Shown here: in pieces, positions 22,794-29,625 of the stretch
Layout: each line of letters opens with the position of its first letter
Position numbering within the stretch: position 1 is the stretch's first letter
NCBI GenBank assembly: GCA_958296135.2
Contig: CATQHZ020000001.1
Coordinates: forward strand, 3,008,001-3,072,000
Source of the DNA: an uncultured Poribacteria bacterium
GTDB taxonomy: Bacteria; Poribacteria; WGA-4E; WGA-3G
Direction of reading: 5' to 3'
Length of the DNA stretch: 64,000 nt
The notes under the pieces: generated by a model
Database searches by the model: none
What the model was told of the DNA's origin: nothing
Seen by the model: the letters and a program-made list of their open reading frames with translations, nothing else
Made by a program: the position numbers and the translations under genes

Positions 22794-23894
22794 GTGCAGA
22801 ATATCCCGATAGAAAATCAGCGGGAACGCGAGTTGGTGGCGGCGTTAGAGCTGCTATCGCCGGGGACTTCGCTGAGGGAAGGCATTGACTATATTATCCA
22901 AGGCAAAACGGGGGCCTTGATTGTCGTCGGGGATACGCCAGAGATTCTCAGTCTGACAGAGGGCGGCTTCCGCATCAACTCACGGTATACGCCGATGCGG
23001 CTGTATGAATTGGCGAAAATGGACGGTGCCATCATTCTGTCTGAGAATATGAAACGGATTGTCCGCGCGAATGTGACGCTGCGGTTAAACCCCTCTATTG
23101 ACTCTAGGGAAACGGGGCTTCGGCATCGCGCTGCGGATAAGTTTGCGCAGCAGACTGGGCACATCGTGCTTGCCGTGTCCCGGAGCAGGAACACGTTGTC
23201 CTTATATCTCCGGAACCAGCGTTACATTTTCCGCGAGCGTCCGATTCTGATTTCGGGCGCGAATCAGACGATGCTCGCGCTCACGCAGTACATCAAGACG
23301 ATGCAGAACGCGATAGCGATACTGAATTGGGTGGAATTGAGCGGGAACGCCACATTGGCGGATGTCATCACAACCATCCAGTTATGCGAGCGCGTGCGCC
23401 GCACTGAATATGAGTTAACCCGATACCGGATTGAATTAGGCACGCACGCGCAGTCGCTCCAACTCATGCCATCGGAGTTGATGGCCGAGATTGAGCGCGG
23501 GCTTCTTGTGATTAAAGACTACTATCACGAGAGCCTACCGGATGCGGCCCAGGCTTTTGAAAAGATTCTGCGGCTGGATGCGAACAGTCTCGCGAGCCGG
23601 AGCACTGTCAGCACTGCCTTGGGCTATCCGCCTGATGCGAGCAATCCGTTAGAGGTGTTGGAGCCGCGCGGGTACCGGATGCTGAGTCAGATTCCGCATA
23701 TCCCGCTCAGCGTCATTGAAAACATCGTTCAGCAGTTCAAAAGGTTGGAAGCTATCTCCGCTGCGTCTGTCGCTGAGTTAGAGGCAGTGGCGGATGTCGG
23801 GAAGGCGAGAGCCACCGCGATTAAGGAGGCACTTGTCAAAATGAAAACGGCGGCTGTCCAACCGGAAATCGTAGCGTTATCTGTATTTGAATAG
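22794..23894 (+). CDS. disA: DNA integrity scanning diadenylate cyclase DisA
   Basis: PGTSLREG, LYELAKMDGA, ETGLRHRAA, PRGYR, C-terminal HhH (DVGKARA); GTG start after GGAGG. Confidence 0.92.
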   Translation: MQNIPIENQRERELVAALELLSPGTSLREGIDYIIQGKTGALIVVGDTPEILSLTEGGFRINSRYTPMRLYELAKMDGAIILSENMKRIVRANVTLRLNPSIDSRETGLRHRAADKFAQQTGHIVLAVSRSRNTLSLYLRNQRYIFRERPILISGANQTMLALTQYIKTMQNAIAILNWVELSGNATLADVITTIQLCERVRRTEYELTRYRIELGTHAQSLQLMPSELMAEIERGLLVIKDYYHESLPDAAQAFEKILRLDANSLASRSTVSTALGYPPDASNPLEVLEPRGYRMLSQIPHIPLSVIENIVQQFKRLEAISAASVAELEAVADVGKARATAIKEALVKMKTAAVQPEIVALSVFE

Positions 23895-24082
23895 TGATAC
23901 GTGGCTGTGCACGCCTGCACGCCGCGTTTCAGCAGATACGCAACAAACTTAGAAACCAAAAATTGTAATATATCTGATTGACGTAGTCTTATCTCTCAGG
24001 TGAGAGGCTGGCGAACGGAGCGTGATGAGCGTTTCCTGCTGCACGATATCAAGAGGCTGGCATATAATGTCCTAACCCCCCG

Positions 24083-24222
24083 TGTGAAGCGGATTAAGAG
24101 TCGGCGGTGCGCAGGCATCGCTGACGGTGGAGGGGCCGTAAGTCCGACGCGATTCCCGAAAGGATTGTTTCGCTGCAGTATCTAGGACTACAACAACAAA
24201 CGTCGCCGCTGGTTTGACCGAG
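24083..24222 (+). ncRNA. Candidate structured RNA domain (riboswitch-like)
   Basis: 11-bp hairpin with G-U pairs GTCGGCGGTGC-GCAG-GCATCGCTGAC; nested AGTCC/GGACT, GCGA/TCGC, TCC-CGAAA-GGA; TATAAT at 24063. Confidence 0.45.
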
Positions 24223-24448
24223 ATGTAAAACGCCTGTGGCGCTCGTGTAAGCCCTCACTGTATTCGCATTTCTCCGATTTTGACGCAGTCTTATTCTGTT
24301 TACAGAATAAGACATCTTCGGCATGCTTGGAAACCTTCGCAAGCATGCCTCCGTCAAAATCGGCAGGTGCGTTTCGGAGGCTCTGAGTGCCGAAGGAGGA
24401 ACTTAGAAGTCTCGACTTATCTCGATATGACGAGACTTCGGGGAACAG
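24203..24448 (+). ncRNA. Orphan TnpB omegaRNA (reRNA)/IS right-end homolog with no adjacent tnpB
   Basis: Shares collinear blocks with 29424-29605: TCGCCGCTGGTTTGAC.GAGA, AAACGCCTGTGG.GCTCGTGT.AG, TGAGTG..GAAG.AGGAACTT, a 3' hairpin and terminal GGGAACAG. Confidence 0.75.
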
Positions 24449-24455
24449 CCACACA

Positions 24456-25832
24456 ATGAGACAATTCATCGCTTTAGCGCGCGAAGTGTTTGTCAAAGTG
24501 AACGTGACACTCTCACCGCGCACGCGCAACCGTATTGAAACGTCCGCCTATAGGGTACCGCCGGTCGCGTTATTCTGCATCGCGCTCTGCATTGCGGGAT
24601 GCGGCGGACAACTTGGAACCATTAAACCACCAGAAGTTGAAACCGCGCTCACGCAGGCGGAGTCCGCTATCGAAAAGGCACGTGAAGTGGACGCGCCGTC
24701 GCTTGCCGCTGACGCGTTTAACTCGGCGGAGGCGAACCTCGCCGCCGCGAAGACTGCCCTCAAGGAAAAGCGAGGGAGCGAGGCACTTCGCCTCGCGTAT
24801 CAAGCCACTGCTGATGCCAAGGTCGCGTACAAGGTGGCCGTTGACACCGCTAAAAACGCGGCGCTGAACGCAACCATCCTTGAGAAGGAAGCGAGTGCTA
24901 AAAAACTCCGCAAAACCCTCACCACGAAAGAGGCACAGTTGGCGAAGGCACAAGAGCGGGTGCAGGAACTCAGCCGTGACGAAGAACAACTGAAACGCAG
25001 GATGAGCCGGCTGGAAAAAGAGAAACGCGAATTGAGAAATAAGCGGGAAACCTACGGGAAACAGGTTTCCGAGCTGAGGGAAACTTTGGAATCGATTCAA
25101 GCGCGCTCGAAGCGTGCAGAAACCGAAATCCGTAGCTACGGCAAGGAGATAGCCGAGTTGCGCCGCAAGTTGGAAGTCGCCGATAAAATGATTCGGGAAG
25201 AGGGGCACCAGAAACGTGCAGCCATCGCCGCGGCGGAATCTCTCCGGAAGCAGCTGCGCGAGCAGGCGGAAATCTATACGGATAAACTCGCGCGGGCGAA
25301 TCAGCGCAGTTCGGCGGCAAAGCATGAGGACTACCTCAAGGAGAAGGCGGCGGAAGCGCGAGCGTTCGTCCAGAGCCAACGGCAGCATGAACCCGTTAAG
25401 ACAGGGCGCACGTCGCTTTCCACAGAGCAGATTGCTGCAGGCAAGGTTGCTCTCAGTAGGTGGAACACCGCGTGGGATAGCAAAAACCTATCCGCGCATC
25501 TCGCTTTTTACGCACCGAATGTCATTGCCGATAAAGTTGTCATTCGTGAGAGCAAGGAGCATCGCACCAAAATCGACCGGGGACAACTTGAAGCCGCCCT
25601 TCGTCCGATGAACGCGCATCCCTGGCGCAAAATCAAGGGAAGCACCGAGGTTGAGCGTGAAAGCGTCATCGGTATTTACCGATTGAGCCGCCTCGTCGCC
25701 CCGGCGGAGAATGAAGACGCGACGGCCCTCTACAATATCTGGATTCGCGAAGTCTGGATGCACCAAGTTGGTGCAGCGTGGAAAATCCATCACGAAATCT
25801 GGCAGATTTACGAGAACGTGCCAAACTTTTAA
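24456..25832 (+). CDS. Lipoprotein with DUF4398-like helical domain, coiled coil and C-terminal NTF2-like domain
   Basis: Lipobox IAGC; AESAIEKAR...AEANLAAAK; long coiled coil; RWNTAWDSKNLSAHLAFY...WKIHHE. Confidence 0.75.
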   Translation: MRQFIALAREVFVKVNVTLSPRTRNRIETSAYRVPPVALFCIALCIAGCGGQLGTIKPPEVETALTQAESAIEKAREVDAPSLAADAFNSAEANLAAAKTALKEKRGSEALRLAYQATADAKVAYKVAVDTAKNAALNATILEKEASAKKLRKTLTTKEAQLAKAQERVQELSRDEEQLKRRMSRLEKEKRELRNKRETYGKQVSELRETLESIQARSKRAETEIRSYGKEIAELRRKLEVADKMIREEGHQKRAAIAAAESLRKQLREQAEIYTDKLARANQRSSAAKHEDYLKEKAAEARAFVQSQRQHEPVKTGRTSLSTEQIAAGKVALSRWNTAWDSKNLSAHLAFYAPNVIADKVVIRESKEHRTKIDRGQLEAALRPMNAHPWRKIKGSTEVERESVIGIYRLSRLVAPAENEDATALYNIWIREVWMHQVGAAWKIHHEIWQIYENVPNF

Positions 25833-28003: not shown

Positions 28004-28016
28004 GGAGGACGTTCCT

Positions 28017-29605
28017 AGCTTCCGAAAATCGAGACACATCGTGATAAAAGCGGATTTATCGTGATAAACGCCAACATAAGTGCTATACGAAGTGTTACCG
28101 TGTTGGGCTCGGTCGAGCGTGCAGTGTTATTCGGGAGACCGAATAACACCTCTTCGGCTCAGCAGATCGTGCAGTGTTTTTTGTAATAACAAAAAACACA
28201 TCTTCGGAAACCGGTTTGGAAACCTTTGCAAACCTGCCTACACGAGCTGCAGCAGCGTGTATTCACGCTCGCCTACACGCCCGCCCGCCAATGATATCAC
28301 CGCCAGCGCATTGCCCACCCTAGTGATATAGGCGAAACACGGCAGACGGGAACACCTCATGAAAACGCACAATATTGCACTGCGCCCGACACCGGCACAG
28401 GTTCAACAATTTCATCAGCACGCGGGATTCCGCCGATTTGTCTATAACTACGCTTTGTCCGATTTCAAAGCAGGCTTAGCTGAAGGCGAATGGCGGAACG
28501 GCCGCACATTGCGCACTCGGTTTAATGCCGTGAAGGACACGCAGTTTGACTGGCAGAAACGGCTCATCGCCCGCGTGGCATCACATGCGTTTGATGATTT
28601 TAACACGGCGTGTCAACGATGGAAGAACAAGCTTGCCAAGTTTCCGAAGTATAAGCGGAAGTCGGGTAAACAATCGTTTCGCGTTGACAATAAACGCAAT
28701 GCGATAAAATGTGAAGGTAAACGGCTTTACCTGCCGAAGATAGGCTGGGTGCGGACGTTTGAAGCGTTGCGGTTCAAAGGCGACGTGATGCGCGTAGTGA
28801 TTAAGAAGCGAGGCCCTCGTTGGTTTGCATCGGTGCTCGTCGAAACCCTGTCAATAGCCAAGCCCGATTTACGTGGTTTGCCTACCGTGGGCATCGATGT
28901 GGGTATCAACACCCTCGCTACTTGCTCTGATGGACGCGCCTTTGAAAACCCGCGCGCCTTGGCTCGTTATCAACGTCAACTCCGCCGTGCGCAACGCGCA
29001 CTGAGTCGTTCAGTCTATCGCAGTCAGAATTGGTGGAAAAAGAAGGAACGTGTTGTCCGTATCCACTATCGTATCGCTTGCATCCGCGAAGACGCGCATC
29101 ACAAAGCCAGCACGGCGATTGTGAAAGGTGTCTCAGCAATCGGGATAGAATCTCTGAACGTGAAAGGCATGATGAAAAACCGCCGGATTGCGAAGGCATT
29201 ATCAGACGCAGCACTCGGGGGATTTCTCTCCAAGTTGAAGACGAAGGCGGCGGCACTCGGCGTGCGGATTGAGGAAGCCTCTCAGTGGTTCGCTTCCTCG
29301 AAGACGTGCAGTGCATGCGGACATAAAAAGGATACCCTCACGTTATCGGAACGTGACTATCACTGCAGCGGGTGTGGATTGCGGATAGACCGAGATTTGA
29401 ACGCTGCAAGGAATTTGGAACCCTCGCCGCTGGTTTGACGGAGAGGAGTGGGTATTACCTCTCGTATCCGAGAGGTAATACCTTAAACGCCTGTGGAGCT
29501 CGTGTCAGACTTCGGTTGCGAAGCAGTGAGTGTTGAAGCAGGAACTTTAGAAATCGGACAGACTCATACGGACTTGTCCAGATATGTCTCGATTTCAGGG
29601 AACAG
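28017..29605 (+). mobile_element. Non-autonomous IS607/IS200-IS605-like element carrying only tnpB
   Basis: Imperfect inverted ends (28026 AAATCGAGACACATC vs reverse complement of 29581-29595 AAATCGAGACATATC); AG at both junctions; ATCGTGATAAA direct repeats at 28038/28058; no tnpA. Confidence 0.65.
28359..29438 (+). CDS. tnpB: RNA-guided endonuclease TnpB
   Basis: N-terminal LRPTPAQ..HAG..RFVYN; RuvC motifs GIDVG, IGIESL, DRDLNAARN; Zn finger CSAC/CSGC. Confidence 0.95.
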   Translation: MKTHNIALRPTPAQVQQFHQHAGFRRFVYNYALSDFKAGLAEGEWRNGRTLRTRFNAVKDTQFDWQKRLIARVASHAFDDFNTACQRWKNKLAKFPKYKRKSGKQSFRVDNKRNAIKCEGKRLYLPKIGWVRTFEALRFKGDVMRVVIKKRGPRWFASVLVETLSIAKPDLRGLPTVGIDVGINTLATCSDGRAFENPRALARYQRQLRRAQRALSRSVYRSQNWWKKKERVVRIHYRIACIREDAHHKASTAIVKGVSAIGIESLNVKGMMKNRRIAKALSDAALGGFLSKLKTKAAALGVRIEEASQWFASSKTCSACGHKKDTLTLSERDYHCSGCGLRIDRDLNAARNLEPSPLV

Positions 29606-29625
29606 TTCTATGCAAAACGTGCCCA
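29424..29625 (+). ncRNA. TnpB omegaRNA overlapping the tnpB 3' end; guide predicted to start after 29605
   Basis: AACGCCTGTGGAG...GAAGCAGGAA scaffold, multiple hairpins, terminal GGGAACAG. Confidence 0.75.

What the first reader, a model, noticed from the sequence alone, without database searches (positions are those of the whole stretch)
24203..24470. Orphan TnpB omegaRNA: a protein-less guide-RNA scaffold ~5 kb from its cognate copy, with a different guide
Seen: 24203-24448 is collinear with the tnpB 3' RNA at 29424-29605. Shared blocks are TCGCCGCTGGTTTGAC.GAGA; AAACGCCTGTGG.GCTCGTGT.AG; TGAGTG..GAAG.AGGAACTT; and a 3' hairpin whose stems differ but still pair (GAAGTCTCG/CGAGACTTC vs GAAATCG/CGATTTC) around a similar GACTT.TC..GATATG. 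Both end in GGGAACAG. No tnpB remnant or recognisable IS left end precedes the orphan, which has a candidate -10 box. Homology stops exactly after GGGAACAG, giving predicted guides CCACACAATGAGACAA (orphan) and TTCTATGCAAAACGTG (cognate); each spans the start codon of the next gene. Known: TnpB uses the right-end omegaRNA plus flanking sequence as its guide. Inference: a trans-encoded guide loaded by TnpB (one nuclease, several guides), or an omegaRNA domesticated as a 5' leader.
Basis: partly seen in the sequence, partly recalled or inferred. Interest (0 to 1): 0.82.

Follow-up and report, generated by a model that had tools for sequence, protein, structure and literature searches.

The report
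Truncated guide-RNA-only mini transposon copy
The "orphan" guide RNA is real, but it is the right end of one crippled copy of a small, multi-copy transposon that carries a TnpB guide-RNA scaffold and no nuclease gene, a kind of element already described elsewhere.

Summary
Window 24198-24448 is homologous to the RNA scaffold that follows tnpB genes, ends exactly at GGGAACAG, and no tnpB remnant precedes it.

It is not a lone orphan. It is one of 7 copies, plus 2 diverged ones, of a roughly 450-nt tnpB-less mini-element in this genome. Intact copies have:
- a left end 90-94% identical to that of two resident IS607-type elements (serine recombinase plus TnpB);
- a conserved ~205-nt domain with base-pair covariation;
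- the omegaRNA scaffold.

All 9 tnpB-less scaffolds carry the 5' domain. It was not detected at any of the 32 tnpB-linked ones.

The window copy has lost about 70 nt of its left end and the host GGAG ribosome-binding site. Two same-genus genomes show the empty site ...GGAG|CCACAAAATG. This copy should therefore be immobile.

The "guide spans the start codon" pattern is a family trait. Left ends abut GGAG in 12 of 14 copies, and an ATG opens a long ORF 5-13 nt after the right end in 10 of 15.

Standalone omegaRNAs used in trans are already in print, so this is a new member of a known kind. Expression and TnpB loading could not be tested. The 5' domain and the ribosome-binding-site targeting are the new leads.

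The parts
23895..23961 (+). Remaining native disA-lipoprotein spacer. It ends in tagaaaccaaaa (23950-23961), the last stretch shared with the empty sites of G001 and G002.
   Evidence: Direct reading. Short-read contigs of one sample run across this junction without a difference (23400-24094).
23962..23985 (+). Inner remnant of the mini-element's left end. About 70 nt of the left end, plus about 19 nt of host flank including the GGAG ribosome-binding site, are missing.
   Evidence: blastn homology to six sibling copies begins at 23961-23965, whereas the siblings extend about 65-70 nt further left to ..aaGGAG|GAGAGTGCTAG...
23986..24188 (+). Conserved ~205-nt 5' domain of the mini-element. It is predicted to be a structured RNA closed by long-range helices.
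   Evidence: Covariance model R1 hits G000:C1:3031986-3032188 at E=8.7e-46. 54 pairs are 96.7% paired, and 7 pairs change on both sides (2 of 500 shuffles reach this). Alifold z=-6.1. No Rfam match.
24198..24448 (+). omegaRNA-type scaffold at the right end of the element, ending in GGGGAACAG.
   Evidence: In this copy 25 of 29 consensus pairs are standard, the lowest of 17 sequences (the others have 27-29).
24273..24365 (.). Nested 93-nt double-hairpin miniature repeat with 15-nt inverted ends, inserted in the apical loop of a scaffold stem.
   Evidence: Absent from copy C1:2122199-2122650. Inverted arms 24274-24288 and 24349-24363 are 93% complementary. It folds as a separate arm. Similar units lie at 28103-28240 and elsewhere.
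24449..24464 (+). Predicted 16-nt guide (host flank). It contains the ATG at 24456-24458.
   Evidence: The element boundary is fixed by 7 copies and the empty site. The only perfect genomic match is this place itself.
24456..25832 (+). Downstream host gene, a DUF4398-domain protein of 458 aa.
28008..29605 (+). Family-A tnpB-only element: left end GACGTTCCTAGC.. after GGAG (28004-28007), tnpB at 28359-29438, scaffold from about 29391 to 29605.
   Evidence: Full-length alignment to the solved ISDra2 TnpB at E=4.7e-47.

Best explanation
Window 23962-24448 is a 5'-truncated, immobilised copy of a non-autonomous IS607-family mini-element that carries a TnpB guide-RNA (omegaRNA) scaffold but no tnpB.

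Intact siblings are 452 nt without nested repeats. Their order is: left end, a ~205-nt structured 5' domain, the omegaRNA scaffold, and a right end ...GGGGAACAG.

Inferred life cycle of intact copies:
- The serine recombinase of the two resident autonomous IS607-type elements moves them in trans, because the ends match.
- They integrate right after a GGAG, which in practice is the ribosome-binding site of a gene. The flank that becomes the guide therefore covers that gene's start codon.
- The RNA is loaded in trans by a resident TnpB. Family A is the likeliest partner, since it has the closest scaffold, the same GGAACAG end and the same GGAG flank.
- That TnpB then cuts emptied sites and restores the element by recombination.

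The window copy inserted at ...GGAG|CCACA.AATG upstream of the DUF4398 gene. A later deletion removed about 70 nt of its left end together with the host GGAG. It can no longer be excised, and its guide has no TAM-flanked target left in this genome. The scaffold is probably transcribed as part of the disA-to-DUF4398 transcript and now serves passively as that gene's 5' leader.

Shown here: homology, copy number, boundaries, empty site, deletion, covariation and insertion-site bias. Inferred: trans mobilisation, trans loading, transcription and current inactivity.
For: Family and boundaries:
- 7 copies share 23961-24448 at 87-91% identity, and 2 more at 73%.
- All 7 end at GGGGAACAG with unrelated flanks.

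Left end:
- In 6 of 6 full copies the left end GAGAGTGCTAG... follows aaGGAG.
- It is 90-94% identical over 32-40 nt to the left ends of two elements encoding a MerR-HTH/resolvase protein of 208 aa and a TnpB of 383 aa. Those elements also end in GGAACAG.

Empty site and junctions:
- G002 has 51 nt between disA and the gene, reading ..tagaaaccaaaacttaaccgaaaaaaaGGAG|ccacaaaATG. G001 has the same junction.
- The window goes from tagaaaccaaaa straight into the inner left end.
- Junction contigs in 4 runs of one sample agree.

No tnpB remnant.

Census: 49 nhmmer hits. 32 are tnpB-linked loci and 17 lie in 11 tnpB-less loci (7 O, 2 P, 2 fragments).

5' domain:
- The covariance model hits exactly the 9 O/P loci in this genome and at least 14 in G004. 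It hit nothing in the other 149 of 151 phylum genomes searched.

Structure:
- 5' domain: z=-6.1, 9 covarying pairs against 2.2 +/- 1.4 in shuffles.
- Scaffold: z=-4.85, 13 covarying pairs against 2.7.

Target choice:
- GGAG precedes 12 of 14 A/O left ends.
- An ATG opening an ORF of at least 100 aa lies 5-13 nt after 10 of 15 right ends. The control is 626 of 20000 random positions.

Available nuclease:
- There are 8 family-A tnpB copies with open frames.
- In the alignment to ISDra2 TnpB, D, E and D are present in the GIDVGI, IGIESL and IDRDLNAA stretches. That these are the catalytic positions is recalled, not tested.

The O scaffold is closest to family A: 77% at best, against 62% for B.

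The concept is in print.
Against: - There are no expression data. No RNA run is on record for this organism.
- No promoter was recognised in the window copy or in an insert-free sibling.
- Trans loading by family-A TnpB is inferred from 77% scaffold identity only. The 3' hairpin differs in sequence and length.
- The left-end deletion rests on a 12-nt shared flank (tagaaaccaaaa) plus the position where sibling homology starts. A global three-way alignment did not place this 12-mer in register.
- The window copy is about 10% diverged from its siblings. It could stem from a sub-lineage with another left end.
- The left boundary (GGAG|GA...) is fixed by only one empty site, and that site shows the right junction. 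The thioesterase/ABC site of the tnpB copy gave no clean empty site in G002.
- The covariation comes from about 4-5 independent lineages in 2 genomes.
Confidence: 0.85

Rival explanations
1. A still-working trans guide. The window RNA is expressed, loaded by a resident TnpB, and directs cleavage of GGAG-flanked empty alleles of the disA/DUF4398 junction. Such alleles could arrive by recombination with relatives. This would make the RNA a drive or exclusion function that outlives the element's own mobility.
For: The scaffold is largely intact: 25 of 29 consensus pairs are standard, and the 5' domain has 58 of 61, like its siblings. Relatives carry the matching empty allele with GGAG and one mismatch to the 16-nt guide. 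Standalone omegaRNAs are reported to work in trans (passage in PMC10691335). Open tnpB copies are present.
Against: This copy has the lowest scaffold pairing of 17 sequences, with three newly broken pairs. One hits a C that 15 of the other 16 sequences keep. There is no target in this genome. No promoter was recognised and there are no RNA data. The mismatch to the relatives' allele lies at guide position 6.
Confidence: 0.25
2. A domesticated regulatory 5' leader. The element is kept because it controls the DUF4398 gene, for example by folding around the start codon or by TnpB binding at the leader.
For: The native ribosome-binding site is gone, so translation must start from the element's G-rich end (GGGGAACAG, then 7 nt, then ATG). 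The copy is old (about 10% diverged) yet the 5' domain still pairs.
Against: Position next to a start codon is the rule for the family (10 of 15), so it needs no locus-specific selection. G001, G002 and G004 express the same gene arrangement without the element. No test for selection was possible.
Confidence: 0.1
3. A recent local deletion of tnpB from a full element related to the copy 5 kb downstream.
For: Scaffold blocks are shared with the nearby family-A copy.
Against: All 9 tnpB-less loci share one architecture with a 5' domain that no tnpB element has. The same architecture occurs in another genus. No tnpB remnant is present. Relatives show an empty site, not a full element. Identity to family A is only 77%.
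Confidence: 0.03

Closest known systems
Standalone omegaRNAs of OMEGA systems (described in the introduction of PMC10691335, citing earlier work of 2021 that I did not read)
   Same: A mobilised guide-RNA scaffold without effector or transposase, sitting in the same genome as effector-bearing copies. The guide is the flank just outside the transposon end. Use in trans by a compatible effector is expected.
   Different: Here the ends are IS607-type. A conserved ~205-nt structured domain sits where tnpB would be. The window copy has lost its left end. Whether published standalone omegaRNAs carry such a domain I could not check, because supplements are closed.
PATE-like minimal IS200/IS605 elements of Geobacillus stearothermophilus (PMC10055086, passages read)
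   Same: Non-coding mini-elements with the ends of tnpB elements, 'which often encode omegaRNAs' that must be used in trans.
   Different: PATEs are defined by the palindromic ends used by Y1 (HUH) transposases. Here no Y1 gene lies next to any element (2 weak hits elsewhere), and the matching autonomous element encodes a serine recombinase.
IS607-family tnpA(S)-tnpB elements and IStrons (10.1101/2023.11.20.567912, passages read)
   Same: A serine-recombinase element with an omegaRNA overlapping the right end. Excision is scarless. There are no target duplications. A short G-rich motif lies next to the left end (TGGG there, GGAG or GG here).
   Different: No group I intron was detected (Rfam). 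The mini-element lacks both genes. Its 5' domain is far smaller than a typical IStron intron and matches no Rfam family.

Membership tests
TnpB omegaRNA (OMEGA guide RNA) | Scaffold homologous to the RNA that overlaps or follows tnpB 3' ends | tested here: met
   blastn E=1e-18 to family-A scaffolds. nhmmer E=4.9e-14 and 1.4e-5. 13 covarying pairs against 2.7 in shuffles.
TnpB omegaRNA (OMEGA guide RNA) | The scaffold ends at the transposon right end, and the guide is the adjoining flank | tested here: met
   7 copies end at GGGGAACAG with unrelated flanks. The empty site in G001 and G002 resumes at 24447-24449.
TnpB omegaRNA (OMEGA guide RNA) | Transcribed and bound by a TnpB | not testable with these tools
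   No RNA run is on record. The complex predictor takes no RNA.
TnpB omegaRNA (OMEGA guide RNA) | The target is flanked by the transposon-adjacent motif | tested here: not met
   The family motif GGAG precedes 12 of 14 left ends. In the window copy the GGAG side is deleted, and no other near-match to the guide exists.
Standalone omegaRNA / PATE-like non-autonomous element | Multi-copy, no ORF, both ends like those of an autonomous element | tested here: inconclusive
   Met by 6 sibling copies. The window copy lacks the outer ~70 nt of the left end. The 61-aa ORF at 24000-24185 is broken by indels in the siblings.
Standalone omegaRNA / PATE-like non-autonomous element | Palindromic subterminal hairpins used by a Y1 transposase (strict PATE sense) | tested here: not met
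   PF01797 gives only 2 weak hits, not next to any element. The matching autonomous elements encode a resolvase-type protein.
IS607 family | Serine recombinase TnpA with an N-terminal MerR-like HTH, next to tnpB, and ends shared with the element in question | tested here: met
   Resolvase E=6e-14 plus MerR/HTH_17 in the 208-aa protein, followed by TnpB domains. Its left end is 90-94% identical to the O left end, and its right end is GGAACAG. Actual mobilisation was not tested.
IStron / group I intron | Group I intron core at the left side of the element | tested here: not met
   No Rfam match at E<=10 for the window copy or for an insert-free sibling, and none at gathering thresholds over the whole window.

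The most novel reading that the evidence does not exclude
Guide-only elements of this lineage are not decay products. They are a stable, cross-genus lineage in which tnpB has been replaced by a dedicated ~205-nt structured RNA domain. The product would be a roughly 350-nt two-domain RNA: the 5' domain supplies expression, processing or stability (or a catalytic activity), and the 3' part is the omegaRNA. This would let a 450-nt parasite exploit both the TnpB and the serine recombinase of other elements. The same end-type group (families A and O) homes to GGAG ribosome-binding sites. Its guides therefore systematically cover start codons, and its G-rich right end may stand in for the displaced ribosome-binding site.
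Probability: 0.35. Interest if true: 0.65.

Novelty: new member of a known kind. Interest (0 to 1): 0.4.

Why it matters
As submitted, the finding is a further example of standalone omegaRNAs, which are already known and reported to work in trans. Three points go beyond that and can be tested directly.

1. All 9 tnpB-less scaffolds in this genome carry a conserved 5' domain with covarying base pairs. It was not detected at any of the 32 tnpB-linked scaffolds. It also occurs in a second Poribacteria genus, again without a tnpB nearby. This hints at what a guide-only element needs in order to make a usable RNA without the tnpB mRNA.

2. An IS607-type TnpB family appears to use the ribosome-binding-site core GGAG as its adjacent motif, and it lands between that site and the start codon. 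This bears on how such elements limit, or cause, damage to host gene expression.

3. The window copy is a natural case of a guide left behind after its element was immobilised. It could show whether such RNAs stay loaded and active.

Tried and rejected
- Rfam. There were 0 matches at gathering thresholds over the whole window. At E<=10, only snoRNA-like chance hits appeared around the window copy. In the insert-free sibling the best hit was RAGATH-18 at 22.3 bits (cut-off 44.9, E=0.11) inside the scaffold core. I treat this as a lead only.
- Group I intron / IStron reading of the 5' domain: no support.
- Small-protein reading of the ORF at 24000-24185: rejected, because sibling copies have 1- and 2-nt indels in it and Pfam finds nothing.
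- The 5' domain as decayed tnpB 3' coding sequence. blastx and an nhmmer profile of 29 tnpB 3' regions match only from about 20 nt before the stop. A by-eye 'DRD' resemblance was not supported and was dropped.
- Promoter scans: 1 site against 0.7 expected in the window region, inside the nested repeat, and 0 in the sibling. The TATAAT at 24063-24068 is private to this copy and has a poor -35.
- Sequencing runs: no RNA holder is listed. The 4 holders belong to one sample and one study. Laying their contigs gave no joint that skips the element, and the repeat interior is collapsed.
- Pattern scan of genome contigs for a 5'-domain block: 9 places, all in one Poribacteria MAG record of 5.5 Mb. This is probably G004, which I did not verify.
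- Pattern scan of metagenome contigs: 4 places, all unrelated GC-rich sequence with no omegaRNA-profile or TnpB match in them.
- A second empty site, for the tnpB element at 28008-29605. In G002 that spacer holds other sequence and the ABC gene has a different N-terminus, so it is not informative. My G001 look-up failed to find the anchor word.
- Off-target search for guides: the only perfect match of the window guide is its own flank. The best other match has 2 mismatches and no GGAG (the output was cut in the middle, but the window guide's rows were complete).
- Three-way MAFFT of the left junction did not put the shared 12-mer in register. The deletion reading rests on direct comparison.
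- Rows dropped. The tool alignment A3, model R1 and the pair counts used 13 of the 16 unique 5' domains listed; the three with a large nested repeat were left out. Two further copies (C1:944757 and C1:3579736) had been missed by my extraction. The script alignments used 17 sequences: 7 O, 2 P and 8 of the copies in G004 (at least 14 there). The genome search scored at most 14 candidates per genome, so the G004 count is a lower bound.
- Literature. 'TnpB' + 'Shine-Dalgarno' + 'transposon-adjacent motif' gave 0 papers. 'Poribacteria' + 'TnpB' gave 0. For a broader five-term search I saw only the listing, and no title concerned ribosome-binding-site targeting. Supplements are closed. Extended data of PMC10055086 and the 2021 work cited in PMC10691335 may show standalone omegaRNAs in more detail than I could see.
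Full report

Yes. The repeat finder pairs 24198-24223 with 29419-29444 (88%) and 24228-24256 with 29485-29513 (86%).

The similarity is not chance:
- blastn of the orphan against the whole genome hits the RNA that follows other copies of the same tnpB family at E=1e-18.
- A DNA profile built from the region after 29 tnpB genes, plus one O and one P copy, hits the window at 24198-24271 (E=4.9e-14) and 24367-24458 (E=1.4e-5).

The part between these two hits is a nested 93-nt repeat (24273-24365) with 15-nt inverted ends. One sibling copy lacks it. In a single-sequence fold it forms its own arm on top of a scaffold stem.

**2. It is one member of a family, not a lone orphan.**

The repeated unit is 23961-24448, not 24203-24448. 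It recurs six more times in the genome at 87-91% identity, and twice more at 73%. I call these families O and P.

All O copies end at GGGGAACAG and have unrelated right flanks.

The six siblings reach about 65-70 nt further left. They reach a left end GAGAGTGCTAGAGCCCGAAAATCCGAG..., which is preceded by aaGGAG in 6 of 6. The shortest sibling, free of nested repeats, is 452 nt (C1:2122199-2122650).

No tnpB remnant is present. blastx with ten resident TnpBs finds only the last ~19 codons, which overlap the scaffold. An nhmmer profile of tnpB 3' regions matches only from about 20 nt before the stop codon.

**3. What kind of transposon is it?**

The genome holds about 32 tnpB loci in four sequence families. 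It has no Y1 transposase next to any of them; PF01797 gives 2 weak hits elsewhere.

The O left end matches, at 90-94% over 32-40 nt, the left ends of two elements at C1:4838048 and C1:3569044. These elements encode:
- a 208-aa MerR-HTH/resolvase protein (Resolvase E=6e-14);
- an overlapping 383-aa TnpB.

Both elements end in GGAACAG. That is the IS607 layout, as described in passages of 10.1101/2023.11.20.567912.

The tnpB-only family A, which includes the window copy at 28008-29605, also ends in GGGAACAG, and its left end likewise follows GGAG. By eye its left end resembles the other two; I did not score that similarity.

Families B and D, and P, share another end pair: GGCTCGGTGCAGTGGCG... 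at the left and ...GCGG at the right.

I infer, without a test, that the resident serine recombinase mobilises the A and O elements in trans.

**4. The empty site and the damage to the window copy.**

In same-genus genome G002, disA and the DUF4398 gene are 51 nt apart. The spacer reads ..tagaaaccaaaacttaaccgaaaaaaaGGAG|ccacaaaATGagacaattc... G001 has the same junction behind an unrelated insert.

In the window, homology to the right flank resumes at 24447-24449, directly after GGGGAACAG. On the left, the window runs from tagaaaccaaaa (23950-23961) straight into the inner part of the O left end (attgtaatatatctga...).

The simplest reading has two steps. First the element integrated after GGAG. 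Then a deletion took about 19 nt of host flank, including the GGAG, together with about 70 nt of the left end.

Contigs from four short-read runs of one sample cross both junctions without a difference. No contig skips the element. That sample is probably the source of the assembly, so this is not independent support.

A global three-way alignment did not place the shared 12-mer in register, so this step rests on direct comparison.

Consequences (inferred):
- This copy lacks one recombination end and cannot be excised.
- The GGAG-flanked target of its guide no longer exists here. The 16-nt guide has no other match with fewer than 2 mismatches.

**5. Why the guides span start codons.**

This is a property of the end-type group, not of this locus:
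- GGAG precedes 12 of 14 A/O left ends. The other two have AGAG.
- An ATG that opens an ORF of at least 100 aa lies 5-13 nt after 10 of 15 A/O right ends.
- The control is 626 of 20000 random positions (3.1%).
- Two further degraded right ends (C1:4423239 and C1:2152697) show the same pattern.

These elements therefore sit between the ribosome-binding site and the start codon.

I found no paper that combines TnpB, Shine-Dalgarno and the adjacent motif (0 papers). In one search I saw the listing only.

**6. The 5' domain.**

Between the left end and the scaffold, all O and P copies carry a ~205-nt stretch (window 23986-24188). It is also present, at 66-78% identity, in many tnpB-less copies in G004, a genome of another genus. 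There, 8 of 8 loci examined have no tnpB within about 1.5 kb.

Evidence for structure:
- On 17 sequences, RNAalifold gives z=-6.1 and 9 covarying pairs, against 2.2 +/- 1.4 (maximum 6) in 100 column shuffles. For the scaffold the figures are z=-4.85 and 13 against 2.7.
- On a tool alignment of 13 sequences, 54 pairs are 96.7% paired. Seven pairs change on both sides (2 of 500 shuffles reach this; slid controls give 0-2).
- The evidence comes from roughly 4-5 independent lineages, so I rate it as moderate.

Distribution:
- A covariance model of the domain hits exactly the nine O/P loci in this genome and at least 14 loci in G004.
- It hit nothing in the other 149 of 151 genomes of the phylum searched. 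This used strict filters and scored at most 14 candidates per genome.

So all 9 complete tnpB-less scaffolds have the domain, and it was not detected at any of the 32 tnpB-linked ones.

It matches no Rfam family, and no conserved ORF lies in it. Its role is unknown. My best guess is an expression, processing or stability module that replaces what the tnpB mRNA provides.

**7. State of the window copy.**

It differs from the O consensus at 38 of 351 core columns. Its 5' domain keeps 58 of 61 pairs, like its siblings. Its scaffold keeps 25 of 29, the lowest of 17 sequences (the others keep 27-29). Three pairs are newly broken. This is compatible with relaxed constraint, but the numbers are small.

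**8. Could it still act?**

A nuclease is available. There are eight family-A tnpB copies with open frames. The window's TnpB aligns over its full length to solved ISDra2 TnpB (E=4.7e-47), with D, E and D present in the GIDVGI, IGIESL and IDRDLNAA stretches. That these are the catalytic positions is recalled, not tested.

The O scaffold is closest to family A: 77% at best, against 62% for B.

Relatives carry a GGAG-flanked allele with one mismatch to the guide.

Expression and loading could not be tested. No RNA run is listed, and no promoter was recognised. Because the native spacer is only 51 nt in G002, read-through from disA is the likeliest source of transcript (inference).

**9. Comparison with what is known.**

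[quoted passage not shown] PMC10055086 says PATE elements 'often encode omegaRNAs' that need TnpB in trans. For both papers I read passages only.

It is not a PATE in the strict sense, because no Y1 system is present. It is not an IStron, because no intron core was found.

The 5' domain, the ribosome-binding-site targeting, and the repeated invasion of scaffold loops by a small hairpin repeat are the parts I could not find described.

**10. Verdict.**

- Observation: confirmed.
- Interpretation: partly supported.
- Identity: a truncated copy of a guide-only IS607-family mini-element, confidence 0.85.
- Novelty: new member of a known kind.
- Interest: 0.4. The open leads named above raise the ceiling if they hold.

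Noticed in passing
window 28004-28007 and 29606-29612; genome-wide A/O copies: Family-A and family-O elements sit between a GGAG ribosome-binding site and the start codon of the next gene. GGAG precedes 12 of 14 left ends. An ATG with an ORF of at least 100 aa follows 10 of 15 right ends within 5-13 nt, against 3.1% of random positions. The G-rich right end may replace the displaced site.
   Followed up: partly
window 24273-24365, 28103-28202; C1:203000, 3122188, 4732687, 2659681, 673081 and others: A ~90-nt double-hairpin miniature repeat with inverted ends CCGATTTT(T)G(A)CG has inserted repeatedly into these elements. It lies in the scaffold loop in 6 of 7 O copies (with a second nested copy in 2), in the loop of a 5'-domain hairpin in 5 copies, and upstream of tnpB in families A and B.
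   Followed up: partly
window 28240-28261 versus 29484-29505 (and 24230-24252): The tnpB 5' leader contains a 22-nt stretch that is 77% complementary to the most conserved scaffold block (AAACGCCTGTGGAGCTCGTGT). It lies in a ~190-nt insert present in 4 of 8 family-A copies. It could be an antisense pairing or a by-product of repeat insertion.
   Followed up: no
window 29445-29484: The window's own tnpB-linked scaffold carries a 40-nt perfect hairpin insert (arms of 14 nt, 100% complementary). It is present in 4 of 8 family-A copies, which again shows that scaffold loops tolerate insertions.
   Followed up: no
G000 C1:4838048-4835900 and C1:3569044-3567000 (minus strand): Two autonomous IS607-type elements (MerR-HTH/resolvase of 208 aa plus TnpB of 383 aa). 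Their own right-end RNA is short and was not detected by the scaffold profile.
   Followed up: partly
L085 (G004), the spacer between disA and the DUF4398 gene: In the other genus the same spacer holds an unrelated tnpB C-terminal fragment, itself interrupted by a small hairpin repeat, upstream of ..GGAGtcaaaaaaATG. G001 has two copies of a ~90-nt repeat there. This spacer is a recurrent landing place.
   Followed up: no
G000 contig C2 (143,886 bp): Its G+C content is 36.8%, against 54.4% for the main contig. It could be a plasmid, a phage, or contamination in the assembly.
   Followed up: no
G000 C1:3734478-3734807 and C1:4791155-4791397: These are the only two Y1-transposase-like hits in the genome (45 and 30 bits). 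They lie in open frames of 274 and 226 aa that are not next to tnpB. They may be REP-associated transposase-like genes.
   Followed up: no
L067 1772-1847 (sibling copy, scaffold core): A sub-threshold Rfam hit to RAGATH-18 (22.3 bits, cut-off 44.9, E=0.11) lies on the conserved scaffold core. It may hint that this Rfam family is related to TnpB scaffolds.
   Followed up: no
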